Shown: in pieces, positions 29,743-61,876 of the stretch
Numbering within the stretch: position 1 is the stretch's first letter
Layout: each line of letters opens with the position of its first letter
Source of the DNA: an uncultured Bacilli bacterium
GTDB taxonomy: Bacteria; Bacillota_I; Bacilli_A; RF39; UBA660
DNA length: 64,000 bases
Assembly: GCA_944332635.1 (NCBI GenBank)
Contig: CALVKI010000010.1
Span: forward strand, 21,579-85,578
Direction of reading: 5' to 3'
Program-made: the position numbers and the translations under genes
Notes under the pieces: generated by a model
What the model saw: only the letters and a program-made list of their open reading frames with translations
What the model was told of the DNA's origin: nothing
Database searches by the model: none

Positions 29743-29783
29743 TTACTATGATTTTTTAAAATCATGGCGGAAGGAGAGATAGT

Positions 29784-42990: not shown

Positions 42991-44089
42991 ATGGAATTAA
43001 AAGAAATAAAAGAACAATTAAATCAAAGTAATAAGCAACTAAAAGAATTATGGAGGTCACTTTGACATAGATAATAGAAAAAATCAAGTAAAAGAATTAG
43101 AAGAAAAAGTAAATGATATTAATTTCTGGAATGATAGAGAAAAAGCCGAGAAAATAATTAAACAATTGAACTCTGAAAAAGAGATAGTAGAAAGTATAGA
43201 AAAGCTATTGATACAAGCAACAGAAAACCTAGAACTAGCTGATTTATTAGAAGTAGAAAATGATGTGGAAAGTAAACAAGAATTAGAACAAGAAACTGTG
43301 AGTATAAAACAAAAAACAGAAGAAATAAGCTTATTTTTACTGTTAGATGGTCCATACGATAAGAATGATTGTATTCTAGAGATTCATCCAGGAGCAGGGG
43401 GGACAGAATCTTGTGATTGGGCATTAATGCTATATAGAATGTATACAAGATGGTGTGAAAAGAAGAAATATAAAATAGAAATATTAGACTATCAAGATGG
43501 GGATGAAGCCGGAATTAAAAATGTTTCAATTAGAGTTAAAGGCCAAAATGCTTATGGCTATCTAAAAAGTGAAAAAGGAGTTCATAGATTAGTTAGACTA
43601 TCACCGTTTGATTCTAATAATAGACGCCATACATCATTTGCTTCAGTGGAAATCACTCCAGAAATAGAACAAGATAATGATATTCAAATAGATGAAAAAG
43701 AATTAAAAATAGATGTCTATCGTTCAACAGGAGCAGGAGGACAAGGTGTTAATACTACAGATTCAGCAGTAAGAATTACACATCTACCAACTAAAATTGT
43801 GGTAACTTGCCAGAATGAAAGAAGTCAAATTCAAAATAAAGAACAAGCTTTAAAAGTTTTAAAGAGCAAGTTATTATTAAATAAAATAGAAAAACAAGAG
43901 CAAGAATTAAATGAAATAAAAGGAGAACAATCAAATATTAATTTTGGCTCACAAATTAGAAGTTATGTTCTGCATCCATATTCAATGGTAAAAGATCATA
44001 GAACTAATGTAGAAACCAGTAATGTTAGTAAAGTATTAGATGGAGATATAGATGAATTTATTGAGGCACAATTAAAACATAAAAAATAA
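42991..44089 (+). CDS. prfB: Peptide chain release factor 2, with programmed +1 ribosomal frameshift at CTT TGA C (43060-43066)
   Basis: Frame 0 reads MELKEIKEQLNQSNKQLKELWRSL and stops at TGA 43063-65. An SD-like GGAGG sits 3 nt upstream of the CTT codon. The +1 frame continues DIDNRKNQVKEL through to the GGQ motif STGAGGQGVNTT. Confidence 0.9.
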
Positions 44090-47523: not shown

Positions 47524-48678
47524 ATGAAGAAAATAAAATTAATAATAGTTTTATTGTGTATAGGTGTATTAATTTTACCATCTGCAACACAAGCTGTAAC
47601 ACTTAAAGAATATGAAGATATGGTAGAAAAATATACTAAAGAACTAAAAGAAAAAGAAGCAAAAATGGCAAAAAATGATGAAGAGGTAGCCGAAATAAAA
47701 GCAAAAATTGTAGATATAGAAGTTGAAATCACAAAAGCAGAAGAAGAAATAGAAAATTTAAAGATTGAAATTGAGAAAAGTAATGAAGAAATAAAAGACA
47801 AAGAAAAAGAAAGTAAAAGATTAGTTCAATATTTTCAAGTTATTAGCAATGAAAATACATATTTAGAATATATATTTGAAGCAGATAGCATTACAGATAT
47901 GATTTATCGTGTTTCTGTGGTGGAACAGCTGACTGACTATAATAAAGAAATTATGGATGATTTAGAAAAATTAATTCAAGAAAATCAGCAGAAAACAGAG
48001 GAGTTAGATAAAAAGAATGATGAGTTAGCTGATTTGAAAAAGGAACTAAACTCTGAAAAGGAAAGAATAGAAACAGAAAATAGAGAAATAGAAGGAACTA
48101 TCCCAAGTACTAAAGGACAAATAGAATACTACCAAAAGCAAGTTGATTACTATAAGAGTAAAGGATGTAAATCAAACGATGTTATAGGAGTAACCTGTGA
48201 TAAACCACCAGTTTCTGGAGGTGGAGGAAATTCTGACGGAGGTGCAGGTGCAATTATTGGAGCTAATGGTTTTAGACGACCAATTGTAGGAGGAAGAATA
48301 AGTTGGTATTATGGTAATGGACATAAAGGCGTTGACTATGCCGCAGGATGTGGTACTCCGATATATTCTGTAGCAACAGGTAGAGTATATTATGTCGGAA
48401 ACACATTAGATGCTTGGGGAGCTAAAATGGTATTAATAGTCCATAATTATAATGGTCGATTGGTATTCTCTCAATATGCACATTTACAAGGATATAATGT
48501 TAGTGTAGGACAAAATGTAGGTATTGGTGATGTCATTGGATACGTAGGTTCAACAGGAAACTCTAGTGGTTGTCACTTACATTTAGAAATGTCAGAAGAT
48601 TATGGATGGGTATACAACGGAACATATAGTCAGTATACATCACATATCATTAATCCTTTTAAATATGTACCAAATTAA
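47524..48678 (+). CDS. Coiled-coil M23 peptidase (EnvC/PcsB-like FtsEX-associated murein hydrolase)
   Basis: Has a signal peptide, a long coiled coil, and a C-terminal LytM region with HKGVDYAAGCGT and GCHLHLE. Confidence 0.75.
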   Translation: MKKIKLIIVLLCIGVLILPSATQAVTLKEYEDMVEKYTKELKEKEAKMAKNDEEVAEIKAKIVDIEVEITKAEEEIENLKIEIEKSNEEIKDKEKESKRLVQYFQVISNENTYLEYIFEADSITDMIYRVSVVEQLTDYNKEIMDDLEKLIQENQQKTEELDKKNDELADLKKELNSEKERIETENREIEGTIPSTKGQIEYYQKQVDYYKSKGCKSNDVIGVTCDKPPVSGGGGNSDGGAGAIIGANGFRRPIVGGRISWYYGNGHKGVDYAAGCGTPIYSVATGRVYYVGNTLDAWGAKMVLIVHNYNGRLVFSQYAHLQGYNVSVGQNVGIGDVIGYVGSTGNSSGCHLHLEMSEDYGWVYNGTYSQYTSHIINPFKYVPN

Positions 48679-49457
48679 AATAAAAAATATAATTTTATTA
48701 CACATCATTTACAATTATAGAACCAACAAAAATAAAAAAATCATGGACTTGTTCAAAGTATATCTAAAAAAATTAGTATGATGGAAAACTTAAAACAGAA
48801 ATATATATGGTTATATTTATTATTATAACTATGATAGAAACAAAGAGAAGGATTGTAACCTGTAATTTGCAGATTACAATCCTTTAATTAGATACTATTT
48901 ATAAACCGCCCAACTTTTGAAGTTCAGTTTATTTTTACCATTTATATTTATCTCACAACTTCATTTTTTATACATGATTTTACTTTCTTTTTTAGTTTAA
49001 CTGTATTTATAATTTTTCTAAATCTGAACTATGTTCCCTATTTCTTCTCAAAGATTCACCTATAGGTATCAATTTTTCACAACGAAAAAAAGTATATCAA
49101 TTTCCGTTGTTAATTTATTACCAATCGCAAACGAACATATCTTATCCTCTTTTTTGGCTATATTATAAAAGATAAAAAAGAAAAGACATTCTTCAACTAT
49201 AGTTATACAATAAATGTGTTCTCTTTTTATATAAAAAGTCGAAAGTGTAAATTGTATTGACATAATAAAAAATATTCGTTATTATGAAAAACAAGTGAAA
49301 ATAGGGAAAACATTAAAGCAATAAATAAAGAATACTAAAGACATATATGAAGTTAATCTAAGAAAAATAATTGTCTTTTTTATTAAAGGCATATGAACAA
49401 AAATATTTCAAGGTTAAACATAATAAATAGATAGAATATGTTCTAAAAAGAAAGAAA

Positions 49458-50273
49458 GTGATAAAAATAACAACATATGAAACGGTTCAAAAACTATTAG
49501 AGCAAGATAATGCCCACGAATTTTATAGATTTCAAGGTCATAATAGTTTTGAATATTATAATATTAGAACAAATAGATTTGAAGATGAGGAAAGTCATTA
49601 TGTATACTTTTCTAGAACTATTAACCATCATTATTATTTTACAATAAGAAGAATAAGACAGTTAATTAATACAACCATTTTGAGGGATACTCCGTATAAT
49701 ATTTCAAGAAAGCACTTAAAAAATCAAAATAGCTTTTTGAATATAAAAAACTTGATAATTAATTCTGAAAAGATAAGAAAACTTAATAGTATAGCATTAG
49801 TATGTGATAATATTTACTATGACTTGATAATGGACAACAGTATTAATAACATGAAAAAGACATATCCAAGTATTGTAGAAAGAGTAGATAGAAGGGTTTA
49901 TGGGGGAGGATATGGGATTACTGGAGCTTGGCTTGATTTATTTAATGATTTAGTATATTTTACTTGTTGTACGAGAATTAATATTCAAGATGTAGTGAAT
50001 TTATTAGAACAAATGAGAAGAGGAACTAGTCAATTAAGTCCAATGCTAATACAAAATATTATGGATACTAAAATAAGAACATATAGTATATCAGAAACTT
50101 TGTATGATGACTTTCACAAATATAAAATTATGGAAGATTTAAACAGAATAGAAGAAGAAAAATTGTGGATTCCTGGGAGTGAATTTTCTAAAAATCCTAA
50201 AGAAACAAAAAAGAAAATATTATCAGTATATCAACAAAAAAGAAATCAAATATTATTAAATTATCATAAATAA
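49458..50273 (+). CDS. Hypothetical protein (271 aa), accessory
   Basis: The ORF follows a long AT-rich intergenic region. No family was recognised. Confidence 0.4.
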   Translation: MIKITTYETVQKLLEQDNAHEFYRFQGHNSFEYYNIRTNRFEDEESHYVYFSRTINHHYYFTIRRIRQLINTTILRDTPYNISRKHLKNQNSFLNIKNLIINSEKIRKLNSIALVCDNIYYDLIMDNSINNMKKTYPSIVERVDRRVYGGGYGITGAWLDLFNDLVYFTCCTRINIQDVVNLLEQMRRGTSQLSPMLIQNIMDTKIRTYSISETLYDDFHKYKIMEDLNRIEEEKLWIPGSEFSKNPKETKKKILSVYQQKRNQILLNYHK

Positions 50274-50290
50274 AAAATCCTAATCATAGT

Positions 50291-51323
50291 TGAAGTTGTC
50301 AATTAAAAGTAGATAATAAAAAACACTTATTCAAACCCTGATTGATGTCTATACTCAATTGGGGTTTTATAATCTAATGAAAAACTAGGTCTTAGATAAT
50401 TATGATCATATATAATTAAATTTATATAGTCTTCAACAGTTTCGAAAGTCTTCTTGATTAAAATCAATGTACATTTCTTTCATAAACCAACCATTTTTTG
50501 ATTCAATAATTGGATTACCTGTTGGTATACCGATTCTCGACATAGACCTAATTATGTTATAATCTTTATGTGCATTATTAAATGCCAATGAGGAATATAT
50601 TGTGCCTTGATCTGAGTGAAAAATAGTTTCTTGGCTTTTATATCCTCTTTTTACTTTATTTTGTAACATATTATTTAAAGCATTTCTATGATTAGACATA
50701 CTTACTCCATGATAAAAAGGTTTAATATCTGATCCTATTATAGAATCATCAAATGCATCTACGTAATATGTCCAATCATATCTTTGTTTTTTAAACCAAA
50801 TCGTTTTTATATCGGACGTTATTTTCTCAAAAGGTCGATAAGTTTTCCAATTGTTATTTATAAGATTAGGATATTTTATTGATTCTTCACCTGTTTTTTT
50901 ATAAATGATTATAATATTTTGCTTTACTTCTAATTTTTAGTATTTTGCAAATATTGTGTACTAAATTATCAGATACATACCATCCAATTTCTCGCCTACT
51001 ACAACTGTACCATCTGCTTTCACTAGATAACCTTTTTTCTCGTTCGTTCTAAATCTTTAATCTCATATTTTCATATTTTAGTTATTCTATTTCTGTTAAT
51101 TTTTTTTCGTTTGAATATTTGCATAAATGATTTTCAGGTTTCTTTTTGTTTTTTAAGGATGATCCACCATTTAAAACTTCTTTAATTAATTTTAATTTTT
51201 CTTTTTTTTTGCTCAATACCTACTAGGTTCTTTTCTTATTCTTGCCATATTGTTATACCTACAATTTTATTGTAATTGTAAAAAATGTAGACATATTTTG
51301 CCTACATTTATTTTACAACTTCA
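50291..51323 (-). mobile_element. Decayed IS3-family (IS150-like) insertion sequence with imperfect terminal inverted repeats; orfA and orfB are fragmented by multiple frameshifts
   Basis: The right end TGAAGTTGTCAATTAAAAGTAG (50291-) matches the reverse complement of the left end, TGAAGTTGTAAAATAAATGTAG (51302-51323). OrfB fragments include HSDQGTIYSS (rve DDE core, 50433-50699), ITSDIKTIWFKKQRYDWTYYVDAFDDSIIGSDI and the C-terminal DYKTPIEYRHQSGFE in another frame. OrfA fragments are MARIRKEPSRY and LTEIE..LKYENMRLKIENEREKK. Confidence 0.75.
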
Positions 51324-51342
51324 TAATTATAATTATAGTATT

Positions 51343-51675
51343 TTATCTTGTTAAACGCTTTGTAAAAGGAACTTCATAAGTATTATTAAAAGCACCAATA
51401 TCATTAGTTCCATTATTTAAAAAGCATGTATCAATACCTAAATTATATGCTAAAATTAATCTTTCTGGAGATTGAGAAATATATAAAGTGGGTATATTTT
51501 GTATGCTTTCTAGTAAATTTCGAAATTCTTGAAGATTTGATTGAGGAACAATTTTCATAGAACTACAAGTAACAGACATATGACCTTTTAGAAGATTTTG
51601 GACATTCTCAGCTATCATCTCATCTATCAAAAGAAAATTATAAGTACCAAAAGTATGTTGTTTATTATTTTTCAC
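51343..51675 (-). CDS. Hypothetical protein (110 aa); its 3' end abuts the IS element
   Basis: An ORF with no recognised family. It may be a remnant truncated by the IS insertion 20 bp away. Confidence 0.3.
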   Translation of the reverse strand: MKNNKQHTFGTYNFLLIDEMIAENVQNLLKGHMSVTCSSMKIVPQSNLQEFRNLLESIQNIPTLYISQSPERLILAYNLGIDTCFLNNGTNDIGAFNNTYEVPFTKRLTR

Positions 51676-52270
51676 TATATTCGCCTCCTTACGTGTTCTT
51701 CCATTATAAATAAAAGTGATAGAAAAGTAAAGATTTTTAAATGAGATTACAAAAGAAAATACTTATTTTTCATGTCATTTATATAAGAAGATTAAAATCA
51801 AAATAAAGGTTTATTACATACTAGACATTGCTAAATTAGTTAGATATAATAGCAATGAATTGAGTGTGATATTACCAGTATGAAAAAATTAATACATTTT
51901 TAGATAAATTGATATCTCAGATTATTATAATATGAAGAGTTTATTTATTACTATGAAAACTTCACTCAATAGTATCAGATAAAAACCAAATAAACTAGTT
52001 GATAGATTGTTATTTTAAAAGAACATATCTTCTATTTTGATATCTATAATTTACTTTGTTACAACAGTAGAAAAAGTGTGTATATGATACATGAAATTCT
52101 GAACTTGTAATTATAGTATTATTTGATTTTAACTAATAAGATATATTTCATTAAAATATAATCAGTATGTACAAACAGTAAAGCAGTAAATAAAATAATC
52201 TATATCATATAACTACCAAAAATAAATCTTATATTATCAATTAAGGTATAATTAAGAAAGGAGAAAAAAT

Positions 52271-54223
52271 ATGTTTAAATTAGTATCCAAATTTAAACCT
52301 TCTGGAGATCAACCTAAAGCTATTAATGAATTAGTAAAAGGTATTAAAGAGGGAAAAAAAGAACAAGTGCTGTTGGGAGCGACTGGTACCGGAAAAACAT
52401 TTACAATTGCAAATGTAATAAAAGAAGTCAACAAACCGACATTAGTACTTGCGCATAATAAAACATTAGCAGGGCAATTATACTCAGAATTAAAAGAACT
52501 TTTTCCGGAAAACAGAGTGGAATATTTTGTTTCATATTATGACTATTATCAACCAGAAGCTTACGTCCCTTCAACTGATACATATATTGAAAAAGATTCT
52601 TCTATCAATGATGAGATTGATGAATTACGTCATGCTGCTACTAGTAGTTTATTGTCGCGTGATGATGTAATTGTTGTTGCGAGTGTTTCTTGTATCTATG
52701 GTATTGGAGAAGTAGATGAATATAGAAATAAAATGTTAACGCTATCTGTTGGCGAAGAAGTTGAAAGAAACGCTATTTTAGCGAAACTAGTAGAAATGAT
52801 GTATGAAAGAAACGACTTAGATTTTAAACGTGGAACATTTAGAGTTCGTGGTGATATTATAGAAATAATACCAGCTTATCAAAATACAACAGGATATCGA
52901 GTAGAATTTTTTGGAAATGAAATAGATAGAATTAGTGAAATAGATACTTTAACTGGAGCAATAATCTCTAATAAAAAAAATGTTAGCTTATTTCCTGCAA
53001 GTCATTTTGTTGTAAGTGATGATAAGTTAAAAGCAGCAATCATTCGTATTAAAGAAGAATTAAAAGAAAGATTACAAGAGCTAAAAGAAAATAATAAATT
53101 ATTAGCTGCAGAGAGACTAGAACAAAGAACAAACTATGATATTGAAATGTTAGAAGAAACAGGTTTTTGTTCAGGAATTGAAAATTATTCTGCACCAATG
53201 GCAGGTAGAAAAAAAGGGGAAACTCCGACAACATTAATGGATTTTTTTCCACAAGATTATTTATTAGTAGTAGATGAATCACATGTTACACTACCACAGG
53301 TAAGAGGAATGTATAATGGTGATAGAGCAAGAAAAATGAATCTTGTTGAGTACGGCTTCCGACTTCCTAGTGCATTGGACAATAGACCATTAATGTATGA
53401 TGAGTTTGAAAAGAAAATTAATCAAGCAATTTACGTATCAGCAACACCAGGAGATTTAGAGCTTAAACATACAGGTGGAAAATTTGTAGAACAAATCATT
53501 CGTCCAACTGGATTATTAGATCCAACAATTGAAGTTAGAAAGACAGAAGGACAAATTGATGATTTAGTTGGTGAAATTAAAGATAGAATTGAAAAGAATG
53601 AAAGAATATTAGTTACAACACTAACAATACGAATGTCAGAAGAATTAACAAATTATCTAAAAGAATTAGATATCAAAGTGGCTTATCTTCATTCTGAAAT
53701 CAAAACACTAGAACGACTTCAAATAATTCATGACTTACGTGTAGGAAAATATGACGTGGTTGTTGGAATAAACCTATTACGTGAAGGAATTGATATTCCA
53801 GAAGTATCACTTATTGCTATACTAGATGCTGATAAAGAGGGATTCTTACGTAGTACTAGAAGCCTAATTCAAACAGTAGGACGTTGTGCGAGAAATGCTA
53901 ATGGTCATGTTATCATGTATGGAGATAAAATTACTGACTCTATGAAAGAAACAATAGAAGAAACAGCGAGACGTAGAAAGATTCAAGAAGAATATAATGA
54001 AAAGCATGGAATTACACCTAAAACTATTAATAAAGAAATTAGAGAAGTAATTAGTAACGTAGATGAGAAAACAGTAGAAAAGCCAAAGAAGATGACGAAA
54101 AAAGAATTTGCTAAAACAGTGGAGGCAATTGAGCAAGAGATGAGAGAAGCAGCAAAAGCATTAGACTTTGAACGTGCAATGGAATTAAGAGATATTCTTT
54201 TTGAAATGAAATCAGGAAACTAG
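52271..54223 (+). CDS. uvrB: Excinuclease ABC subunit B
   Basis: 650 aa with helicase motifs GATGTGKT and a C-terminal UVR domain. Confidence 0.95.
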
Positions 54224-54224
54224 T

Positions 54225-55064
54225 ATGGATAAGTATAAAAAAGTATATATAGAAATAACTAATATTTGTAATCTTAATTGTTCATTTTGTTCACCAATAA
54301 GAAAACAAAAACGATTTATGGAAGAAAAAGAATTTGAACACATTCTAAAACAAATATCAAAAGTAACCAAAGTAATTTATCTTCATGTTAAAGGCGAACC
54401 TTTATTACATCCAAAAATAATCAATTTTTTACGAATTGCTGAAAAATATAACGTAAATGTAAATTTAACAACAAACGGAATTTTATTTCCTACGTTAGTA
54501 GAAAAATTAAAAGACTGTAAATCATTACATAAGATAAATTTTTCTCTTCATTGTGAACAAAACATTCCTAACTATGAAGAAGCAATATTTAAAAATGTAG
54601 AAAAATTATCCCCAAATACTGTGATTATTTACCGATTATGGACATTAAAAGATAATAAATTAGATGAAAAGTCTATAAAAACAGTGAAAAAATTAGAAAG
54701 ATATTATAATTTATCCACAGAAACAGTGGAAAAATTAAAAACAGAAAACAATGTAAAGATTTCTTCCACAATATATGTGGATAAAGATAATGAGTTTAAA
54801 TGGCCAGAAATTACAAATCACAAGAGTTGTGGATATTGTCATGGGCTAAAAACTCAACTGGCAATTTTAGTAGATGGAACAGTAGTACCATGTTGTCTTG
54901 ATAGTGATAGCATTATTAATTTAGGAAATATATTTAATGAAACAATAGAAGAAATTCAAAAAAAGGAAAGATATAAAAAATTAAAAAAATCATTTCAAGA
55001 TAGAAAGCCAAGTGAAGCTCTGTGCCAATCATGCACGTTTAAGGAAAGGGATATAAAATGTTAA
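54225..55064 (+). CDS. Radical SAM enzyme with C-terminal SPASM/twitch auxiliary-cluster domain
   Basis: Has the radical SAM motif CNLNCSFC, the GGEPLL-like VKGEPLL, and C-terminal cysteines CGYCHG...VPCCLDSD...GN...CQSC. Confidence 0.75.
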   Translation: MDKYKKVYIEITNICNLNCSFCSPIRKQKRFMEEKEFEHILKQISKVTKVIYLHVKGEPLLHPKIINFLRIAEKYNVNVNLTTNGILFPTLVEKLKDCKSLHKINFSLHCEQNIPNYEEAIFKNVEKLSPNTVIIYRLWTLKDNKLDEKSIKTVKKLERYYNLSTETVEKLKTENNVKISSTIYVDKDNEFKWPEITNHKSCGYCHGLKTQLAILVDGTVVPCCLDSDSIINLGNIFNETIEEIQKKERYKKLKKSFQDRKPSEALCQSCTFKERDIKC

Positions 55065-56242
55065 AAATATATGAAAAGGTATCAAAAACACAAAATAATT
55101 TATTAGGGATTGTAGAAAGAGAAAAGAATAAATCTTTAATAGGAGAGGAACCGTGCTTATTATGTATCTCAGCTCAAACTATGCATCCTAAATCTGTTTT
55201 TGGAATAATAAGAGAAGGAATGCAAGCCGCCAGATTAAGAACAACAGAAGAAATTGGAGCTGGTTATGATATTAAAGATTTTCCTGTGCATTTTTTAGGA
55301 ATGACTTTCCAATCAGATGAACATTATAAAAATCCAGGTCAGGAATTAGCGGAAACACAATTTTTTCCATTATTAGAAGAAGAAGGAAAAAGATTAACAG
55401 AAGAGCAAGTAAAAAATAAGTTTAGAAACATCAATATACTAACCTATTGTAATGGAACGGAAACATATTTAGAAGCTGAAAAACAAACAAAAAAAAGAAT
55501 GGAAGAATTAGGATATAGTCAAGAAGAACAAAATAACATTTTATCCCAAATATCAGTAGTTGCTATAGCAACAATGTCTGATGTTAGTGAAATAAATGCT
55601 TCATGTACTACATTTATTGATGTGAATGATAGTGAAATATGGACACCATTGATAGAATCGTTACAAGAAAGATTAGAAGATGGTCAAAAGAAAATAGATC
55701 AACTACCAATTTCTCTGACAAGCAAGATATGCTATTTCAATGGAAGTGGAACACACTCAATTAAGGAATACTTATTAGACTCATCACTAGCAAAAGCACC
55801 AATCTGTATTTCAATAATATGCAGCTTAAATAATAGCCTCCACAATAAAAAACAAACAGAAAAGCACCCTTATCAACAAGATAATATGTTTTTTAACACA
55901 ACGTTACATTACTATAATAAAATGAAAATATCTCCAGAAGAAATAATTAAAAGGTTAGATAAAAGTGTAGAGTATGAAGGGGTGACTCCAAAAAGCCAAG
56001 AAGTAATAGAATTGTTAAACCACCAAGATAGTTTATGTAAAACAATGTATTATTTACAACAAGAAAATGAATATTTGAGGAAAAAGGAAAAGAGAACATC
56101 AGATAAGTTAGATAGTCTAGTTTCAACAATGTCAGACACATTACCAAAGGACACTTACTACGATATCTTAGTAAAAGGGATAGGTTTTCAAATTCCAGCA
56201 GGAGAACATATAGAAACCGAATTAGGAAAAGGAAAAAAATAA
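55058..56242 (+). CDS. Hypothetical protein (394 aa), co-transcribed with the radical SAM gene
   Basis: Overlaps the radical SAM stop codon. No family was recognised. Confidence 0.4.
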   Translation: MLKIYEKVSKTQNNLLGIVEREKNKSLIGEEPCLLCISAQTMHPKSVFGIIREGMQAARLRTTEEIGAGYDIKDFPVHFLGMTFQSDEHYKNPGQELAETQFFPLLEEEGKRLTEEQVKNKFRNINILTYCNGTETYLEAEKQTKKRMEELGYSQEEQNNILSQISVVAIATMSDVSEINASCTTFIDVNDSEIWTPLIESLQERLEDGQKKIDQLPISLTSKICYFNGSGTHSIKEYLLDSSLAKAPICISIICSLNNSLHNKKQTEKHPYQQDNMFFNTTLHYYNKMKISPEEIIKRLDKSVEYEGVTPKSQEVIELLNHQDSLCKTMYYLQQENEYLRKKEKRTSDKLDSLVSTMSDTLPKDTYYDILVKGIGFQIPAGEHIETELGKGKK

Positions 56243-56262
56243 TCTTTCTTTTTTTTGTTTAA

Positions 56263-56291
56263 TTGACGAACAAATGTTTTTTGCTATAAAA
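56263..56291 (+). promoter_or_regulatory. Putative uvrA promoter (-35 TTGACG, 16-nt spacer, -10 TATAAAA) overlapped by a Cheo-like LexA box CGAACAAATGTTTT (56267-56280)
   Basis: The box matches CGAACRNRYGTTCG at 12 of 14 positions. A second extended -10 TGTTATAAT lies at 56329-56337. Confidence 0.4.
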
Positions 56292-56355
56292 TAATTATGC
56301 AAAATTTGAATAAAAAAAATAAAAAATATGTTATAATATGTGGCAGGTGAAATAT

Positions 56356-59169
56356 ATGGATAAAATTATTGTAAAAGGTGCAAGAGAAAACAATTTAAAA
56401 AATGTAAATATAGAATTACCCAAAAATAAACTAATTGTTATGACTGGGGTATCAGGAAGTGGAAAAAGTAGTCTTGCTTTTGATACTATTTATGCAGAAG
56501 GTCAAAGAAGATATGTGGAAAGTTTATCTGCATACGCTAGACAATTCTTGGGTGGAAGTGAAAAACCAGATGTTGATAGTATCGAAGGATTATCCCCAGC
56601 TATTAGTATTGATCAAAAAACAACTAATAATAATCCTAGATCAACAGTTGGAACTGTAACAGAAATATATGATTATTTGAGGCTTATCTTTGCTCGCGCT
56701 GGTGTGCCATATTGCCCTAATCACAATATTCCTATATCAAGTCAAAGTGTTGAAGAAATGACTAATAAAATATTAGAATATCCAGAAGGAACAAAAATAA
56801 TTGTTATGGCTCCAGTTGTGCATGGAGAAAAAGGAACACAGAAAGATTTATTAGAAAGATTACGCAAAGAAGGTTATATCAGAGTAAGAATAGATGAAGA
56901 AATGATGGATTTATCTGAAGAAATAGTATTAGATAAAAATAAAAAACATAAAATGGATGTTATTATTGACCGCTTAATTATTAAAGAGGGAATAAGATCA
57001 AGAATTTTTGAGGCGATTGAATCCGCTACAAAGTTAGCAGAAGGAAAAGTTGTAGTAGATGTGCTTGGGGAAAATAAAAAAGAAATTGTTTTATCTGAAT
57101 CATTTGCTTGCCCATACTGCGAATATTCATTACCAGAATTAGAACCTAGAATATTCAGTTTTAATGCTCCATATGGGGCTTGTCCAGATTGCAAAGGTTT
57201 AGGAATAAAATTGCAAATAGATGCAGATTTAGTAATACCAGATAAAGATAAATCTATTAGAGAAGGATGCATCAAAACATTAACAGATGATCCGGAAGGT
57301 TTAGATTATCAAAAGCTAGAATGTGTATGCAAGCATTATAAGATTGATATGACAAAACCGTGGAAAAGTTTAACTAAAAAGCAAAAGGATGTCATTCTTT
57401 ATGGTTCGGACGAAATAATTCATTTTCAATATTCTTCTAAAAGTGGTAATAAATATAATAGTAAAGACTTCTATGAAGGGATTATTAATAATTTAGAAAG
57501 AAGATATATGGAAACCAGTTCTACATGGATTAGAGATTGGTTAGAAAACTATATGGTAGAACACACCTGCGAAACTTGTCATGGAGCACGACTTACGGAC
57601 GACGTGTTATCCGTAAAGGTAAACGGGAAAAATATATATGAAGTAACGACAATGAGTATAAAAGAATTAATTCCATTTTTTGATAATTTAGAGTTATCAG
57701 AAGAAAAGAAGGAAATTGCAAAACTTGTTATTAAAGAAGTACAAGATAGATTACATTTCTTGAAAAATGTAGGATTAGAATATTTAACTTTAAGCAGAAG
57801 TGCTGGCACCTTATCCGGTGGAGAAGCCCAACGTATTCGATTAGCAACGCAAATTGGATCACATTTAACAGGTGTTTTATATGTTTTAGACGAGCCTAGT
57901 ATTGGATTGCATCAAAGGGATAACGAAAAATTAATTAATTCTATGTTAGAAATGCGAGACTTAGGAAACACACTAATTGTAGTAGAACACGATACAGATA
58001 CAATGTTAGCATGTGATTATTTAGTGGATATTGGACCTGGAGCGGGTGATCATGGTGGACAAATTGTCGCAGCTGGTACACCAGAAGAAGTTATGAAAAA
58101 TGAAAATAGCTTAACAGGACAATATTTGAGTGGAAAGAAATGTATTGATGTACCAAATACAAGAAGAAAAGGGAATAAAAAGTTCTTAAAAATAAAAGGT
58201 GCCGCAGAACACAATTTAAAAAATATTGATGTTGATATTCCACTAGGTACATTTACATGTATAACTGGAGTATCCGGAAGTGGAAAGAGTAGTTTAGTAA
58301 ATGAGATACTTTGTAAAGAAGTAGCTTCTAAACTATATAATTCAAAAGAACGTCCTGGAAAGCATAAAAAGATTTTGGGATTAGATAATATTGATAAATT
58401 AGTTGCCATCTCGCAGAACCCAATAGGTAGAACACCACGTTCAAATCCAGCAACATATACTGGAGTATTTGATGATATTCGTACTCTTTTTACAACGACA
58501 AAAGAAGCAAAAATGTACGGATTTGAAAAGAACAGATTTTCCTTTAATGTAAAAGGTGGAAGATGTGAAGCATGTCGTGGAGATGGTGTGAAAAAGATAG
58601 AAATGCACTTTTTACCAGATGTTTATGTCCCATGTGAGGTTTGTCATGGAACTAGGTATAATAGAGAGACTTTAAACATAAAGTATAAAGGAAAAAATAT
58701 TGCAGAAGTACTAGATATGAGAGTCTCTGAAGCTTTAGAATTCTTCTCAAATGTTCCAAAAATAAAAAATAAACTCCAGGTGCTAGAAGATGTAGGTCTA
58801 GGTTATATAAAATTAGGACAAAGTGCACCAACTTTATCTGGTGGAGAGGCAGAACGTGTAAAGTTAGCAAAAGAATTACAAAAAAAAGCAACGGGTAAAA
58901 CATTATTTGTACTAGACGAACCTACAACGGGATTACATACAGATGATATTAAGCGCTTACTTGCAATTTTGCAGAAAATAGTAGATAATAAAGACACAGT
59001 AGTAGTAATTGAACACAACTTAGATGTAATTAAGGTTGCTGATTACATTATTGATTTAGGACCAGAAGGTGGAGACGAAGGTGGACAAATTGTTGCCACT
59101 GGAACACCAGAAGAAGTATCTAAGGTGAAAGAATCTTACACTGGACAGTTTCTAAAAAAAATCTTATAA
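56356..59169 (+). CDS. uvrA: Excinuclease ABC subunit A
   Basis: Has two ABC ATPase modules with Walker A motifs GVSGSGKSS, plus zinc fingers. The ATG at 56356 has an RBS AGGTGA. Confidence 0.95.
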   Translation: MDKIIVKGARENNLKNVNIELPKNKLIVMTGVSGSGKSSLAFDTIYAEGQRRYVESLSAYARQFLGGSEKPDVDSIEGLSPAISIDQKTTNNNPRSTVGTVTEIYDYLRLIFARAGVPYCPNHNIPISSQSVEEMTNKILEYPEGTKIIVMAPVVHGEKGTQKDLLERLRKEGYIRVRIDEEMMDLSEEIVLDKNKKHKMDVIIDRLIIKEGIRSRIFEAIESATKLAEGKVVVDVLGENKKEIVLSESFACPYCEYSLPELEPRIFSFNAPYGACPDCKGLGIKLQIDADLVIPDKDKSIREGCIKTLTDDPEGLDYQKLECVCKHYKIDMTKPWKSLTKKQKDVILYGSDEIIHFQYSSKSGNKYNSKDFYEGIINNLERRYMETSSTWIRDWLENYMVEHTCETCHGARLTDDVLSVKVNGKNIYEVTTMSIKELIPFFDNLELSEEKKEIAKLVIKEVQDRLHFLKNVGLEYLTLSRSAGTLSGGEAQRIRLATQIGSHLTGVLYVLDEPSIGLHQRDNEKLINSMLEMRDLGNTLIVVEHDTDTMLACDYLVDIGPGAGDHGGQIVAAGTPEEVMKNENSLTGQYLSGKKCIDVPNTRRKGNKKFLKIKGAAEHNLKNIDVDIPLGTFTCITGVSGSGKSSLVNEILCKEVASKLYNSKERPGKHKKILGLDNIDKLVAISQNPIGRTPRSNPATYTGVFDDIRTLFTTTKEAKMYGFEKNRFSFNVKGGRCEACRGDGVKKIEMHFLPDVYVPCEVCHGTRYNRETLNIKYKGKNIAEVLDMRVSEALEFFSNVPKIKNKLQVLEDVGLGYIKLGQSAPTLSGGEAERVKLAKELQKKATGKTLFVLDEPTTGLHTDDIKRLLAILQKIVDNKDTVVVIEHNLDVIKVADYIIDLGPEGGDEGGQIVATGTPEEVSKVKESYTGQFLKKIL

Positions 59170-59183
59170 AAAAGAGGTAATGT

Positions 59184-59969
59184 ATGGAAAAAGTAGCGCT
59201 AGATTTAGGACCAATTCAAATATATTGGTATTCAATATTTATTTTCATAGGAATGCTAATAGCCTGCATAGTAATTTATAAAGAAGCGAAAAAAAAAGGA
59301 ATTGAAGAAGATTTTTTAGTAAATTTGACATTTAATACAATTATTTTTGGTATTATAGGAGCGAGACTTTATTATGTTCTATTTAACTTATCCTACTATA
59401 TGAATAATCCAATAGAAATTTTACAGGTTTGGAATGGAGGACTTGCAATTCATGGAGGTATTATTGCTGGGTTACTATTTGTAATTTATTATTGTAGAAA
59501 ACATGAAGTAAACTTATGGAAAATGCTAGATATCATCGTTGTGGGATTAATTATTGCTCAAGCAATTGGAAGATGGGGAAATTTTTTCAATAGTGAAGCC
59601 TATGGTCCAGTAACAACAGCAGAAAAATTAGAATCACATGGAATACCAGATTTTATAATTAGTGGTATGTATATTTTAGGAGACTACCGTCAGCCAACAT
59701 TCTTTTATGAATCTATGTGGTGCTTATTTGGTTTTTTAGCAATGCTAATAATACGAAAATATAAAAAATTAAAAATAAGTCAATTAACTAGTTTTTATCT
59801 AATTTGGTATGGAGCTATTAGATTTATTATAGAGGCTATGAGAACAGATTCATTAATGCTAGGACCATTAAAAATAGCTCAGTTTGTGTCAGTGATTTTT
59901 ATTATTTCGGGAATAATAATTTTTATTAAGAGTATAAAAAAAACAGAACAGGAATTATATAATGTGTAA
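59184..59969 (+). CDS. lgt: Prolipoprotein diacylglyceryl transferase
   Basis: Has the Lgt signature GARLYYVLFN...WNGGLAIHGGIIAG. Confidence 0.9.
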   Translation: MEKVALDLGPIQIYWYSIFIFIGMLIACIVIYKEAKKKGIEEDFLVNLTFNTIIFGIIGARLYYVLFNLSYYMNNPIEILQVWNGGLAIHGGIIAGLLFVIYYCRKHEVNLWKMLDIIVVGLIIAQAIGRWGNFFNSEAYGPVTTAEKLESHGIPDFIISGMYILGDYRQPTFFYESMWCLFGFLAMLIIRKYKKLKISQLTSFYLIWYGAIRFIIEAMRTDSLMLGPLKIAQFVSVIFIISGIIIFIKSIKKTEQELYNV

Positions 59970-59983
59970 ATAGGAGGGAAAAA

Positions 59984-60937
59984 ATGCATAAAAAAATTGT
60001 AGTTTTTGGAGGAGGAACAGGAATTTCTTATCTATTAAAAGGATTAAAAGATTTCCCATTAGATATTACAGCCGTTATTACCGTATCAGATAATGGAAGA
60101 TCAACAGGAAAGTTAAGGAAAGAGTTTAATACTCCTGCTGTAGGAGATATTAGAAAGGTTATTACAGCATTATCAGAAATAGATGACCCAATAAAAAAAA
60201 TGGTAGAATATCGATTTAATACATCAAGTGATCTAAATGGACATGCCGTAGGTAATTTGATATTAACGGCGATGCTAGATATAACAGGTTCATTAAAGGC
60301 ATCAATTTCTTCATTATGTAAATTATTTGACGTTAAACATACAGTCTTACCTATATCAGAAGATTCTTCTTTAACATTGATGGGATTAGATAAAGATGGA
60401 AACGTTATTGAAGGAGAAGAAGAAATTACACAATCCCATCACCAATTTCAAAAAATATATTATAAAGAAGAACCAAAAGTGTTACCTGAAGTAATAAATG
60501 CAATTCAAAATGCCGATCTAATTGTATTTAGCATGGGTAGTCTTTACACTAGTATTTTACCAAATGTAATTTGCAATGAAGTAAAAAGCGCATTAAAGGA
60601 AACTAAAGCTCCAATAATGTATTTATGTAATGCTGTTACTCAGCCAGGTGAAACAGATAATTTTACAGTTAGTGATCATATAAAATTATTAAATAAGTAT
60701 TTAGATTTTAGAAAAATTGATGTAGTTATTGCAAGTAATACAAAAATTGAAAAGAAAATAGCCGAAAAATATGCTACAGCTGAACAAAAAGATCCAGTAA
60801 AAATTGATTATACAGCTATTGAGAATCTTGGAACAGAACTTATAGAAGAAGACTTAATCACAATAGAAGATAATACTTTAAGACATAATAGTTTGAAGTT
60901 AAGCTCTTTGGTGTTTAATTATTTAATGAGGAATTAA
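59984..60937 (+). CDS. yvcK: Gluconeogenesis factor YvcK (UPF0052/CofD-like)
   Basis: Begins KIVVFGGGTGISYLLKGLK. It is followed by whiA, as in the Bacillus yvcJKL arrangement. Confidence 0.85.
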   Translation: MHKKIVVFGGGTGISYLLKGLKDFPLDITAVITVSDNGRSTGKLRKEFNTPAVGDIRKVITALSEIDDPIKKMVEYRFNTSSDLNGHAVGNLILTAMLDITGSLKASISSLCKLFDVKHTVLPISEDSSLTLMGLDKDGNVIEGEEEITQSHHQFQKIYYKEEPKVLPEVINAIQNADLIVFSMGSLYTSILPNVICNEVKSALKETKAPIMYLCNAVTQPGETDNFTVSDHIKLLNKYLDFRKIDVVIASNTKIEKKIAEKYATAEQKDPVKIDYTAIENLGTELIEEDLITIEDNTLRHNSLKLSSLVFNYLMRN

Positions 60938-61876
60938 ATGTCATATACGACAGATATAAAAGAAGAAATATCTAAAAACATTGGTTCCAAATCTGAAATA
61001 ATCGCTGAATTGTCGGGGTATATTAGAAATAATGGACATCATACTTTAAATGGGTTTCAATTAACAACAGAAAATCCTTTAATATGTGATAAAATAGAAC
61101 AGCAAATGGAAACTTTATATGAGGTGAATATAAAAAAAGAAATAAAAGATAGCCTAAATTTCAGTAAAAAAGATTTATTTGTATTAACAATTGAAGAAAA
61201 AAAAGACTTTATTTTAGAAGATATTGGCTATCAAGATAAAAAGGGAAATTATCTGCATATACCACCACAATACATTATAGGAGCTAATGAAGAGATAAGA
61301 GCATATTTAAAGGGTGTGTTTTTAAGTTCTGGAAGTATAAATGATCCAAAAACATCAAGATACCATATGGAACTTTTAATAGAAGAACCGAGCGAAGCAG
61401 TCTTTGTTCAAAAATTATTAAATCTATTTGATTTAAATGTAAAAATATTAACAAGAGATAAAGGGTATATGCTATATATAAAAGAGGCAGATAAAATTAG
61501 TGATTACTTAAAAATTATCAGAGCAAATAATGCAGTGCTATATTTTGAAAACCAAAGAATTTATCGTAATCAAAAAAATCAAGCTAATCGTTTAAATAAT
61601 TGCGAACAAGCTAATATGGATAAAATAGTCGCAACAGCAACAGCTCAATTAGATGACATTGTAATTATAGAAGAAAACTTAGGAAAAAGCTTATTAGATG
61701 AAAAAACACAACAAGCTCTAGAATATAGAAAGAAATATCCAGAGGCTTCGTTGAAAGAATTAAGTGAAATTATTTCCATAGAAACTGGGATTAAGATTAC
61801 AAAATCAGGATTAAATCATAGATTTAGAAAGATTAAAGAATTAGCAATCAGATTTAAAAATTTAGAAAAAAAATAG
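60938..61876 (+). CDS. whiA: DNA-binding protein WhiA
   Basis: 312 aa with a LAGLIDADG-like N-terminal domain and a C-terminal HTH. Confidence 0.85.
   Translation: MSYTTDIKEEISKNIGSKSEIIAELSGYIRNNGHHTLNGFQLTTENPLICDKIEQQMETLYEVNIKKEIKDSLNFSKKDLFVLTIEEKKDFILEDIGYQDKKGNYLHIPPQYIIGANEEIRAYLKGVFLSSGSINDPKTSRYHMELLIEEPSEAVFVQKLLNLFDLNVKILTRDKGYMLYIKEADKISDYLKIIRANNAVLYFENQRIYRNQKNQANRLNNCEQANMDKIVATATAQLDDIVIIEENLGKSLLDEKTQQALEYRKKYPEASLKELSEIISIETGIKITKSGLNHRFRKIKELAIRFKNLEKK

What the first reader, a model, noticed from the sequence alone, without database searches (positions are those of the whole stretch)
54225..56242. Radical SAM/SPASM enzyme plus 394-aa unknown protein inserted inside the uvrB-uvrA pair
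uvrB and uvrA are normally contiguous. Here two overlapping genes sit between them, with the radical SAM gene starting 2 nt after the uvrB stop. The 279-aa radical SAM protein has a CNLNCSFC cluster plus a canonical SPASM/twitch cysteine array. That is the hallmark of peptide or protein-modifying maturases such as anSME, sactisynthases and QhpD. The partner protein has no recognisable family and several Cys residues, and may be the substrate or a partner. No small precursor ORF is evident nearby.
Basis: partly seen in the sequence, partly recalled or inferred. Interest (0 to 1): 0.55.

Follow-up and report, generated by a model that had tools for sequence, protein, structure and literature searches.

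The report
uvrB-coupled twitch radical SAM enzyme
An uncharacterised BtrN-like radical SAM enzyme is a conserved downstream partner of the DNA-repair gene uvrB in many uncultured gut Bacilli and sits beside other repair genes in unrelated bacteria, hinting at an unknown nucleic-acid damage function, while the 394-aa gene next to it is unrelated, variable cargo.

Summary
uvrB (52271-54223), a 279-aa radical SAM gene (54225-55064), a 394-aa gene (55058-56242) and uvrA lie in one direction and are tightly packed.

The peptide-maturase reading is not supported. Only a CX12GX4C...CX2C set of auxiliary cysteines is conserved. That is a one-cluster "twitch" domain, not a full SPASM array. BtrN is the best match by both sequence and fold. 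There is no RRE domain and no precursor ORF, and no curated family model reaches its cut-off.

uvrB-rSAM is a deeply conserved, apparently translationally coupled pair. It occurs in about 100 loci of uncultured low-GC gut Bacilli, with rSAM identity as low as 37%. The space around it is a hypervariable slot holding 43 cargo families.

The 394-aa protein is one such cargo. It has an alpha/beta-hydrolase-like fold with invariant Cys131, Asp191 and His233. It occupies this slot only in close relatives and lies elsewhere, without rSAM or uvr genes, in more distant ones.

Outside this clade, family members sit immediately beside recG, uvrC, mutY and an SPL-family gene. They also sit beside rRNA-modification genes and a TSCPD 4-Cys protein.

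Best guess, with modest confidence: an oxygen-independent radical enzyme acting on damaged DNA or nucleotides. The substrate is unknown.

The parts
52271..54223 (+). uvrB (650 aa), first gene of the unit
   Evidence: NCBIfam UvrB equivalog scores 1078 bits against a cut-off of 743. Its last codons contain an AGGAAA Shine-Dalgarno-like sequence that would serve the next gene.
54225..55064 (+). 279-aa twitch-type radical SAM enzyme (BtrN-like architecture, uncharacterised family)
   Evidence: Pfam PF04055 and PF13186 both pass their cut-offs. No NCBIfam model passes. A PDB profile search ranks BtrN first, E 1.5e-12. The AF2 model has pLDDT 86.8. Foldseek ranks BtrN 4m7t first, E 1.6e-11.
54267..54290 (+). 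Codons for C15-x3-C19-x2-C22, the radical SAM cluster motif (CNLNCSFC)
   Evidence: Read from the translation. All three Cys are 100% conserved in 166 homologues.
54837..55034 (+). Twitch (partial SPASM) domain, residues 205-270: C205-x12-G218-x4-C223 C224 ... C267-x2-C270
   Evidence: These residues are invariant in 166 homologues. They align with the BtrN cysteines at chain positions 169, about 188, 232 and 235. The CX5CX3C part of a full SPASM motif is absent.
55058..56242 (+). 394-aa alpha/beta-hydrolase-like protein with a helical, coiled-coil C-terminus. It is variable cargo, not a conserved partner.
   Evidence: No family passes cut-off; Obc1_C scores 21.9 bits against 27. The AF2 model has pLDDT 90.5. 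Foldseek ranks the Obc1 C-terminal hydrolase domain first, E 2.5e-6. C131, D191 and H233 are invariant.
55058..55064 (+). 7-nt overlap (ATGTTAA) between the rSAM stop and the 394-aa gene start, preceded by GGAAAGGGA
   Evidence: Sequence read directly.
56263..56292 (+). Promoter-like site for uvrA (TTGACG, 18 nt, TAAAAT). A LexA/Cheo-like half-palindrome CGAACAAATGTTT (56267-56279) overlaps its first hexamer.
   Evidence: Seen. The box sits at about -70 in close relatives only: 17 of 65 uvrA upstream regions have a box at up to one mismatch, about 13 of them this box at about -70. Only 1 of 72 uvrB upstream regions has one, against a background of 5.8%.
56338..59169 (+). uvrA. The likely true start is ATG 56356 (MDKIIVKG), giving 937 aa.
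   Evidence: NCBIfam UvrA scores 1561 bits against 1147. A public gene call on what appears to be the source contig gives 937 aa.
59184..61876 (+). lgt, a cofD/yvcK-like gene and whiA: conserved downstream synteny, shown as context
   Evidence: ORFs. Pfam labels for the same genes in relatives. The order is conserved.

Best explanation
What it is:
- The 279-aa gene encodes a small 'twitch' radical SAM enzyme with the architecture of BtrN. It has a CX3CX2C SAM-cleaving [4Fe-4S] site on a partial TIM barrel. It also has one auxiliary [4Fe-4S] site, predicted to be held by C205, C223 or C224, C267 and C270.
- It is not a two-cluster SPASM peptide maturase.
- It is a vertically inherited, tightly (probably translationally) coupled downstream partner of uvrB in a large clade of uncultured low-GC gut Bacilli.
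- uvrB, the rSAM gene and, in this sublineage, the 394-aa gene probably form one transcription unit. uvrA probably has its own promoter.

Inferred mechanism:
- The enzyme makes a 5'-deoxyadenosyl radical and abstracts a hydrogen atom from a sugar- or base-type carbon of a nucleoside, nucleotide or DNA substrate.
- The auxiliary cluster acts as the electron conduit.
- This would give an oxygen-independent lesion-reversal or lesion-processing step that works alongside excision repair.
- The invariant extra Cys224-Leu-Asp226 is a candidate H-atom or proton relay.

The 394-aa protein:
- It is an unrelated alpha/beta-hydrolase-fold protein with a putative Cys131-Asp191-His233 triad.
- It was inserted into a hypervariable slot between the rSAM gene and uvrA in a narrow sublineage.

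What is shown: gene structure, domain type, conservation of the uvrB linkage, variability of the cargo, and the recurrent repair-gene neighbours.

What is inferred: co-transcription, cluster ligation, substrate class, and any role in repair.
For: Architecture:
- Pfam Radical_SAM and SPASM hits pass their cut-offs.
- BtrN is the top PDB hit by sequence profile, with the four auxiliary Cys aligned.
- BtrN is also the top Foldseek hit for the AF2 model, E 1.6e-11, TM 0.58/0.65.
- The next fold matches include several sugar- or nucleoside-acting enzymes (AbmM, BlsE, DesII, SpeY) as well as peptide maturases.

Linkage to uvrB:
- uvrB lies immediately upstream in about 50 of 80 GTDB species-representative loci.
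- The same holds in about 45 of 80 metagenome loci.
- These members span 14 of 34 sequence clusters, with rSAM identity to the window of 37-100%.
- The start usually lies 3-53 nt after the uvrB stop.
- In L058, L067, L097, L100 and L104 uvrA is absent downstream but uvrB-rSAM persists.

Independent repair-gene partners elsewhere, same strand and tightly spaced:
- recG in L115, L119 and L130, with a 3-7 nt gap; RecG passes the NCBIfam cut-off in L115 and L130, and L119 is assigned by tblastn only.
- uvrC in L064, overlapping.
- mutY in Vescimonas fastidiosa, 3-nt gap, RefSeq annotation. The family motifs are intact there.
- An SPL-family gene in L070, 82 nt downstream.
- tag, divergent and adjacent, in L053.

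Rough enrichment: 5 DNA-repair partners among about 43-50 distinct tight same-strand neighbours gives P of about 0.008-0.05. This uses assumed background rates of 2.5-4%.

Cargo status of the 394-aa gene.
Against: - No experiment and no identified substrate exist for this family.
- Synteny in this clade also joins functionally unrelated genes (uvrA-lgt-yvcK-whiA). Conserved adjacency alone is therefore weak evidence.
- The uvrB-uvrA interval accepts unrelated insertions from 43 families. The rSAM gene could simply be the oldest insertion.
- Other recurring neighbours point elsewhere. These are RluF-like pseudouridine synthases (L137, L172), RlmH (B. thuringiensis), RsmB/RlmN (L152), MurG or UgtP-like GT28 enzymes, and a TSCPD 4-Cys protein.
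- No LexA/Cheo box above chance lies upstream of uvrB (1 of 72 loci). The same holds upstream of family members in Lysinibacillus, Paenibacillus and others (5 of 75; background 5.8%).
- The family pI is not consistently basic. It is about 6-6.7 in higher-GC taxa, which argues against a dedicated DNA-binding surface.
- The enrichment statistics rest on neighbours first picked out by eye and on assumed background rates.
Confidence: 0.4

Rival explanations
1. The enzyme is a housekeeping radical SAM enzyme unrelated to DNA repair. Candidates are an rRNA or tRNA modification enzyme, or a sugar, cofactor or envelope-precursor enzyme. On this view it merely hitch-hikes in the uvrB operon of streamlined genomes.
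For: - It is adjacent to RluF-like genes in L137 and L172, to RsmB with RlmN nearby in L152, and to RlmH in B. thuringiensis.
- MurG lies directly downstream in 17 gut contigs, and a UgtP-like GT28 gene lies upstream in Lysinibacillus.
- The closest structures are small-molecule sugar or aminocyclitol enzymes.
- The pI is near neutral in higher-GC taxa.
- No SOS box is present.
- Unrelated genes are also syntenic in this clade.
- The family occurs in aerobic Bacillales with unremarkable neighbours.
Against: - DNA-repair genes are the largest single functional class among tight same-strand partners. Five different repair genes appear in unrelated lineages.
- The uvrB coupling survives divergence down to 37% identity while flanking cargo turns over.
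Confidence: 0.35
2. The enzyme is a SPASM-type peptide or protein maturase. Its substrate would be the neighbouring 394-aa protein or, in other lineages, the small TSCPD 4-Cys protein.
For: - The Pfam SPASM domain passes its cut-off.
- Fold matches include SuiB, SkfB, anSME and EpeE.
- The gene overlaps the 394-aa gene by 7 nt.
- In 20 gut contigs an 81-85 aa TIGR03905 TSCPD 4-Cys protein lies directly upstream, in the classic precursor-plus-maturase layout.
Against: - Only the one-cluster twitch cysteines are conserved.
- There is no RRE or N-terminal extension.
- All peptide-maturase NCBIfam models score far below cut-off.
- The 394-aa protein is absent from most uvrB-rSAM loci, and its distant homologues occur without any rSAM.
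- No TSCPD homologue is in the window, and the TSCPD pairing is confined to one sequence cluster.
- Most family members have no small neighbouring ORF.
Confidence: 0.1
3. The uvrB-uvrA interval is a mobile or defence island, and both inserted genes are accessory cargo, for example a viperin-like antiviral rSAM.
For: - The slot is hypervariable, with 43 families, TnpB fragments and an IS110 transposase next to one copy.
- There are weak pVip hits to the N-terminal radical SAM core, 40.5 bits.
Against: - The rSAM gene is the constant element, not a variable one.
- The pVip and NCBIfam viperin matches cover only the generic core and fall far below cut-off (33.6 bits against 180).
- No PADLOC hit exists for the 394-aa protein or for other cargo tested.
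- The family is nearly absent from phage and plasmid collections.
- GC content matches the flanks.
Confidence: 0.03

Closest known systems
BtrN (2-deoxy-scyllo-inosamine dehydrogenase, butirosin pathway; PDB 4m7s/4m7t), the prototype twitch radical SAM enzyme
   Same: - Similar size (about 250-280 aa) and an abridged radical SAM barrel.
- A C-terminal twitch domain with the same C...G-x4-C...C-x2-C spacing.
- The top hit by sequence profile (E 1.5e-12) and by fold (E 1.6e-11).
   Different: - Only 17% identity, with TM about 0.6.
- No aminoglycoside-cluster context.
- Family-specific invariant residues H54, H62, R137-x-W139, F191-x-W193-P and the extra C224-L-D226.
- Conserved coupling to uvrB and other repair genes.
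Spore photoproduct lyase (SPL/SplB), to my knowledge the only characterised radical SAM DNA-repair enzyme
   Same: - It uses radical SAM chemistry and is genetically tied to DNA repair.
- SPL-family genes lie next to family members in L070 and near one in L053.
- An invariant non-ligand Cys near the active region could serve as an H-atom donor, as in SPL (inference).
   Different: - There is no match to the Pfam SPL model (PF20903).
- SPL has no auxiliary cluster or twitch domain and is about 340 aa (established knowledge).
- No lesion is known for the present family.
SPASM peptide and protein maturases (anSME, sactisynthases such as SkfB and CteB, SuiB, PqqE, QhpD)
   Same: - The Pfam SPASM model matches.
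- These proteins appear among the fold matches.
   Different: - They carry the full 7-Cys motif for two auxiliary clusters.
- They are usually larger (320-450 aa), often with an RRE domain, and have a neighbouring substrate gene.
- Here only the twitch subset is conserved, and there is no RRE and no conserved substrate gene.
MoaA (GTP 3',8-cyclase)
   Same: - A radical SAM enzyme with one C-terminal auxiliary cluster that acts on a purine nucleotide.
- NCBIfam MoaA models hit the N-terminal half at 57-59 bits.
   Different: - The scores are far below the MoaA cut-offs of 231-325.
- The C-terminal domain and cysteine spacing differ.
- There is no molybdopterin context.
Obc1 C-terminal domain and dienelactone-hydrolase-like alpha/beta hydrolases (for the 394-aa protein)
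   Same: - The best fold match is 5iky, E 2.5e-6.
- There is a sub-threshold Pfam Obc1_C hit.
- The invariant residues occur in the order nucleophile, acid, His (C131, D191, H233).
   Different: - Query-normalised TM is only 0.41, and there is no sequence-level PDB hit.
- The nucleophile would be Cys rather than Ser.
- There is an extra 130-residue helical or coiled-coil C-terminus.
- The function is unknown.

Membership tests
Radical SAM superfamily | CX3CX2C motif for the SAM-binding [4Fe-4S] cluster, and a PF04055 match above the gathering score | tested here: met
   C15, C19 and C22 are 100% conserved. PF04055 scores 52.4 bits against 29.5. A GGE-like K56-G-E-P motif is conserved.
SPASM subfamily (two auxiliary clusters) | Seven-Cys motif: CX9-15GX4C, gap, CX2CX5CX3C, gap, C | tested here: not met
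   PF13186 matches at 55.4 bits. However, only C205-x12-G-x4-C223 and C267-x2-C270 are conserved. The CX5CX3C element is absent, and C202 and C279 vary.
Twitch radical SAM enzymes (BtrN type, one auxiliary cluster) | An abridged SPASM domain whose four Cys correspond to the BtrN auxiliary-cluster ligands, with a matching fold | tested here: met
   The HMM alignment places C205, C223, C267 and C270 on BtrN C169, about C188, C232 and C235. Foldseek ranks 4m7t first. Actual cluster binding cannot be tested with these tools.
BtrN orthologue (2-DOIA dehydrogenase) | Close sequence similarity and a butirosin or aminoglycoside biosynthetic context | tested here: not met
   Identity is 17%. The neighbours are uvrB, uvrA and lgt, not aminoglycoside genes.
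RiPP or protein maturases (sactisynthase, ranthipeptide, anSME, PqqE, QhpD) | A family HMM above cut-off, an RRE or substrate-binding extension, and an adjacent precursor or substrate gene | tested here: not met
   All such NCBIfam models score 28-51 bits against cut-offs of 300-650. The radical SAM core starts at residue 5-9. There is no conserved adjacent small ORF in the uvrB clade.
Spore photoproduct lyase | A match to PF20903 (SPL) | tested here: not met
   PF20903 is not among the Pfam hits for the window protein. By contrast, neighbours in L053 and L070 do match it.
Prokaryotic viperins (pVip) | A full-length match above the NF038283 cut-off, or a PADLOC pVip match across the protein | tested here: not met
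   NF038283 scores 33.6 bits against 180. The PADLOC pVip hit is 40 bits over residues 7-107 only.
SOS (LexA) regulon member | A Cheo box (CGAACN4GTTCG-like) in the promoter of the transcription unit | tested here: not met
   Only 1 of 72 uvrB upstream regions has a box at up to one mismatch, against a background of 5.8%. A conserved box exists only upstream of uvrA, in close relatives. No lexA gene was looked for in the window.
Alpha/beta hydrolase fold (394-aa protein) | The alpha/beta hydrolase fold with nucleophile, acid and His in canonical order | tested here: inconclusive
   Foldseek ranks the Obc1 hydrolase domain first, E 2.5e-6 but TM 0.41, and other esterases match weakly. C131, D191 and H233 are invariant in the right order. 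Triad geometry could not be measured because no model coordinates were available. Pfam Obc1_C is below its cut-off.

The most novel reading that the evidence does not exclude
The family may be a second class of radical SAM DNA-damage enzyme, after spore photoproduct lyase. On this reading, a twitch enzyme loaded alongside UvrB, RecG, UvrC or MutY directly reverses or pre-processes lesions that form under anoxia and otherwise need excision repair. Candidate lesions are 5',8-cyclopurines and 5,6-dihydropyrimidines. The auxiliary cluster would supply or accept the electron. In some Clostridia a TSCPD 4-Cys protein, related to the redox tail of class II ribonucleotide reductase, would act as the thiol or electron donor. 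The specific lesions and the TSCPD role are my speculation. The evidence does not exclude them.
Probability: 0.17. Interest if true: 0.9.

Novelty: new member of a known kind. Interest (0 to 1): 0.55.

Why it matters
To my knowledge, spore photoproduct lyase is the only radical SAM enzyme known to repair DNA. This finding identifies a widespread, uncharacterised twitch radical SAM family. At least several hundred genomes and thousands of database proteins carry it, including cultivable Bacillus cereus group, Lysinibacillus and Paenibacillus species.

The family is welded to uvrB across a whole clade of gut Bacilli. It independently sits in operon-like positions with recG, uvrC, mutY and an SPL-family gene in other lineages. 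If the link is functional, it would reveal oxygen-independent DNA or nucleotide damage chemistry in anaerobic gut bacteria. Cultivable orthologues make this directly testable.

If the link is not functional, the finding still corrects a tempting misannotation as a RiPP maturase. It also documents the uvrB-uvrA interval as an insertion hot spot.

Tried and rejected
- **Curated family assignment.** None was found. The best NCBIfam hit, TIGR04317, scores 78.8 bits against a cut-off of 380.
- **Literature.** Searches on radical SAM with uvrB, SPASM, twitch, DNA repair, TSCPD, TIGR03905 and operon found nothing on this family.
- **Database names.** All are generic: 'radical SAM/SPASM domain-containing protein' or 'Fe-S oxidoreductase'.
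- **The 394-aa protein as partner or substrate.** Rejected on gene-context evidence.
- **SOS control.** No box lies upstream of uvrB or of non-uvrB family members.
- **Intrinsic terminator after the 394-aa gene.** The A/U hairpin folds no better than shuffled sequence, z 0.49. The consensus scan found no + strand terminator.
- **Defence island.** PADLOC and PHROGs gave only generic radical SAM core hits.
- **Mobile-element carriage.** There was one unverified phage contig and four large non-mobilizable plasmid records. The viral contig scan found nothing. The phage hit L181 is high-GC, and my crude ORF caller could not resolve it.
- **Basic pI as a sign of DNA binding.** Not consistent across the family.
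- **RNA elements.** No tRNA was found. The only Rfam hit is an unrelated L31 leader.
- **Sequence-level PDB hit for the 394-aa family.** None.
Full report
**1. Observation**

The window carries the following genes on the + strand:
- uvrB, 52271-54223
- a 279-aa ORF, 54225-55064
- a 394-aa ORF, 55058-56242
- uvrA, 56338-59169 (probable true start 56356)
- lgt, a CofD/YvcK-like gene and whiA

UvrB and UvrA pass their NCBIfam equivalog cut-offs. One nucleotide separates the uvrB stop from the rSAM ATG. The two inserted genes overlap by 7 nt. Shine-Dalgarno-like purine runs sit inside the preceding coding sequence in both cases. GC content is uniform across the region, 0.25-0.32. The consensus scan found no + strand terminator between 51.5 and 59.3 kb.

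**2. The 279-aa protein**

It passes Pfam Radical_SAM (residues 9-109) and SPASM (residues 205-271). No NCBIfam model comes near its cut-off; the best is TIGR04317 at 78.8 bits against 380.

Three alignments were examined: 14 close homologues, 17 distant homologues and 166 collected homologues. They show these invariant residues:
- C15, C19 and C22
- Y52-L-H54-x-K-G-E-P-L-x-H62
- T82-T-N-G
- N105-x-S107-x-H109
- R137-x-W139
- F191-x-W193-P
- C205, G218, C223-C224-L-D226, G234-N, C267 and C270

The conserved auxiliary cysteines are thus C-x12-G-x4-C ... C-x2-C. The CX5CX3C block of a full SPASM motif is missing, and C202 and C279 vary.

A profile search of PDB sequences puts BtrN first (E 1.5e-12). 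It aligns exactly these cysteines with BtrN positions 169, about 188, 232 and 235. From my knowledge of the BtrN structure paper, those are the ligands of its single auxiliary cluster.

An AlphaFold2 model (pLDDT 86.8, pTM 0.86) again matches BtrN best (4m7t, E 1.6e-11, TM 0.58/0.65). The next matches are SuiB, AbmM, BlsE, SkfB, DesII, EpeE, SpeY and anSME.

The protein is therefore a twitch-type radical SAM enzyme. It starts directly with the core and has no RRE-like extension. Public names for family members are all generic.

**3. The uvrB linkage**

Relatives at 82% and 68% identity have the same uvrB-rSAM ... uvrA layout.

A scan of one genome per GTDB species found more than 571 relatives, of which the best 80 were kept. 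About 50 of these 80 have uvrB immediately upstream. All of those 50 are uncultured 'Bacilli/Tenericutes/Mollicutes/Erysipelotrichaceae'-labelled gut MAGs. A metagenome scan added about 45 more.

In a UPGMA of 166 homologues, the uvrB-linked members occupy 14 of 34 clusters, with identity to the window protein of 37-100%. The rSAM start is usually 3-53 nt from the uvrB stop.

In five loci uvrA is not downstream, yet uvrB-rSAM persists (L058, L067, L097, L100, L104). The rSAM gene therefore travels with uvrB.

Between rSAM and uvrA, and in about 14 loci between uvrB and rSAM, lie 0-3 unrelated genes. In total there are 85 such genes in 43 families. They include:
- a glycosyltransferase
- a HAD hydrolase
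- a holin-like membrane protein
- a zinc-ribbon protein
- a RelA/SpoT protein
- a Cu-oxidase_4/YfiH-type protein
- DUF7666
- TnpB fragments

The rSAM gene is the constant element in a hypervariable slot.

**4. The 394-aa protein**

No family passes cut-off. The only hit is Obc1_C at 21.9 bits against 27. It has 33 homologues in the 5.8-billion-protein set, and a profile finds 661 representatives.

The AF2 model is confident (pLDDT 90.5). Residues 1-245 form an alpha/beta domain, and a helical, coiled-coil region follows.

Foldseek gives the Obc1 C-terminal hydrolase domain first (E 2.5e-6, TMq 0.41). Dienelactone-hydrolase-like enzymes and esterases follow weakly. In BFVD the top match is a Tupanvirus ORFan (E 3e-10). 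There is no sequence-level PDB hit.

Invariant C131 (T-Y-C-D/N-G-T), D191 (D-V-N-D) and H233 occur in the order nucleophile, acid, His.

Homologues at 56-59% identity sit in the same slot after the rSAM gene. Homologues at 45% identity or less sit elsewhere, among unrelated genes, with no rSAM or uvr gene. None of the 80 GTDB loci contains one. It is cargo, not a dedicated partner or substrate.

**5. Contexts outside the uvrB clade**

The family also occurs at 31-45% identity over the full length in:
- Lysinibacillus, Solibacillus, Viridibacillus and Paenibacillus
- the B. cereus group
- Tissierella and Psychrilyobacter
- Draconibacterium and Segatella
- Vescimonas and Lachnospiraceae-like gut contigs

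*DNA-repair neighbours*
- recG, same strand, 3-7 nt gap, in L115, L119 and L130. RecG was confirmed by NCBIfam in L115 and L130; L119 rests on tblastn only.
- uvrC, overlapping, in L064.
- mutY, 3-nt gap, in Vescimonas fastidiosa, followed by tdk. The family motifs are intact there.
- An SPL-family gene 82 nt downstream in L070.
- tag, divergent and adjacent, in L053.
- Nth-like, DinB and LigD genes lie 2-4 genes away in three loci. That is compatible with chance.

*Other recurring neighbours*
- RluF-like pseudouridine synthases in L137 and L172.
- RsmB upstream, with RlmN two genes downstream, in L152.
- RlmH in B. thuringiensis.
- A TIGR03905 TSCPD 4-Cys protein immediately upstream in 20 gut contigs, with MurG downstream in 17 of them.
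- Oxidative-stress genes nearby: rubrerythrin, MsrA, a peroxiredoxin and a TrxB-like reductase.

*Rough enrichment*

Among about 43-50 distinct tight same-strand partners, DNA repair is the largest class, with 5 partners including uvrB. This gives a binomial P of about 0.008-0.05 at assumed background rates of 2.5-4%. Repair or rRNA modification together give 9 partners, P of about 0.0008-0.017. These are rough figures. The neighbours were first spotted by eye, and the background rates are assumptions.

**6. Regulation**

A promoter-like site (TTGACG, 18 nt, TAAAAT) overlaps a Cheo-like half-palindrome, CGAACAAATGTTT. It lies about 70 nt before uvrA and is conserved at that position in close relatives only.

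No such box lies upstream of uvrB: 1 of 72 loci, against a background of 5.8%. None lies upstream of family members elsewhere: 5 of 75 loci.

uvrB, rSAM and the 394-aa gene therefore look like one unit without a recognisable SOS operator. uvrA looks separately promoted. This is inference, since there are no transcript data.

**7. Interpretation**

Firmly supported:
- The protein is a BtrN-like twitch radical SAM enzyme of an uncharacterised, widespread family.
- It is fixed as the downstream partner of uvrB in a large clade.
- The 394-aa alpha/beta-hydrolase-like gene is lineage-specific cargo.

The most likely function is radical chemistry on a nucleoside, nucleotide or DNA substrate connected with damage repair (confidence about 0.4). 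The main rival is an unrelated housekeeping role, for example rRNA modification or sugar metabolism, with hitch-hiking in a compact operon (about 0.35). The peptide or protein-maturase idea survives only through the TSCPD pairing in one clade (about 0.1). A defence or mobile island is unlikely (about 0.03).

**8. Novelty**

The fold and superfamily are known. The subfamily, its uvrB coupling and its recurrent repair-gene partners are not described in the searched literature. I rate it a new member of a known kind. There is a roughly 17% chance that it is a new class of radical SAM DNA-damage enzyme. Cultivable orthologues make the question directly testable.

Noticed in passing
L146-L176 group, e.g. 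L174:5744-7885 and L163:5731-7968: In 20 human-gut contigs an 81-85 aa TIGR03905 TSCPD 4-Cys protein lies immediately upstream of a 262-aa family member. It scores 113-115 bits against a cut-off of 67.7. MurG follows downstream in 17 of the contigs. An MtnN-like nucleosidase lies divergently upstream in at least four (L150, L153, L174, L176), and a Fur-like regulator and a rubrerythrin lie downstream in several. The small protein could be a redox partner or a substrate.
   Followed up: partly
uvrB-uvrA interval in L001-L176 (window 54224-56337): In this clade the interval between uvrB and uvrA is an insertion hot spot. It holds 85 cargo genes in 43 families, including TnpB fragments, and an IS110 transposase lies next to one copy (L093).
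   Followed up: partly
L014, L020, L029, L034, L138, L149 (e.g. L020:5292-6014): A roughly 240-aa Cu-oxidase_4 (YfiH/PgeF-type) gene is inserted between uvrB and the rSAM gene in six loci.
   Followed up: no
L178 (Vescimonas fastidiosa NZ_AP023416.1, 67865-78698): The order is rSAM homologue, mutY, thymidine kinase and a PflA-like '4Fe-4S cluster-binding' radical SAM protein, all in one direction on an 861-kb replicon that PLSDB lists as a plasmid.
   Followed up: partly
window 43055-43075 and 43166-44089: A GGAGG ... CTT TGA C sequence lies upstream of the RF2 (prfB-like) ORF. By eye it looks like the canonical +1 programmed frameshift site. This ORF and the neighbouring ftsE- and ftsX-like ORFs were identified by eye only.
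   Followed up: no
window 48700-52270: A roughly 3.6-kb low-coding stretch lies between the M23/PcsB-like peptidase (47524-48678) and uvrB. It contains a 271-aa ORF with no family hit (49458-50273). It also contains an 88-aa remnant with a sub-threshold integrase-core (rve) match (50433-50699, minus strand) and a 110-aa ORF that is conserved upstream of uvrB in relatives.
   Followed up: partly
window 29746-29776: An L31-Firmicutes ribosomal-protein leader is the only Rfam hit in the window, at 33.8 bits against a gathering score of 33.3. No tRNA genes were found in the 64 kb.
   Followed up: no
394-aa protein model (window 55058-56242): The best BFVD fold match is a Tupanvirus 'ORFan' of 661 aa (E 3.2e-10). 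This suggests the alpha/beta-plus-helical architecture also exists in giant viruses.
   Followed up: no
window 56267-56279 and equivalent sites in L001-L003, L008, L010, L011, L037, L093, L095, L096: A Cheo-like box, GAACAAATGTTT, is conserved about 70 nt upstream of uvrA and overlaps the -35 hexamer. No lexA gene was looked for in the window.
   Followed up: partly
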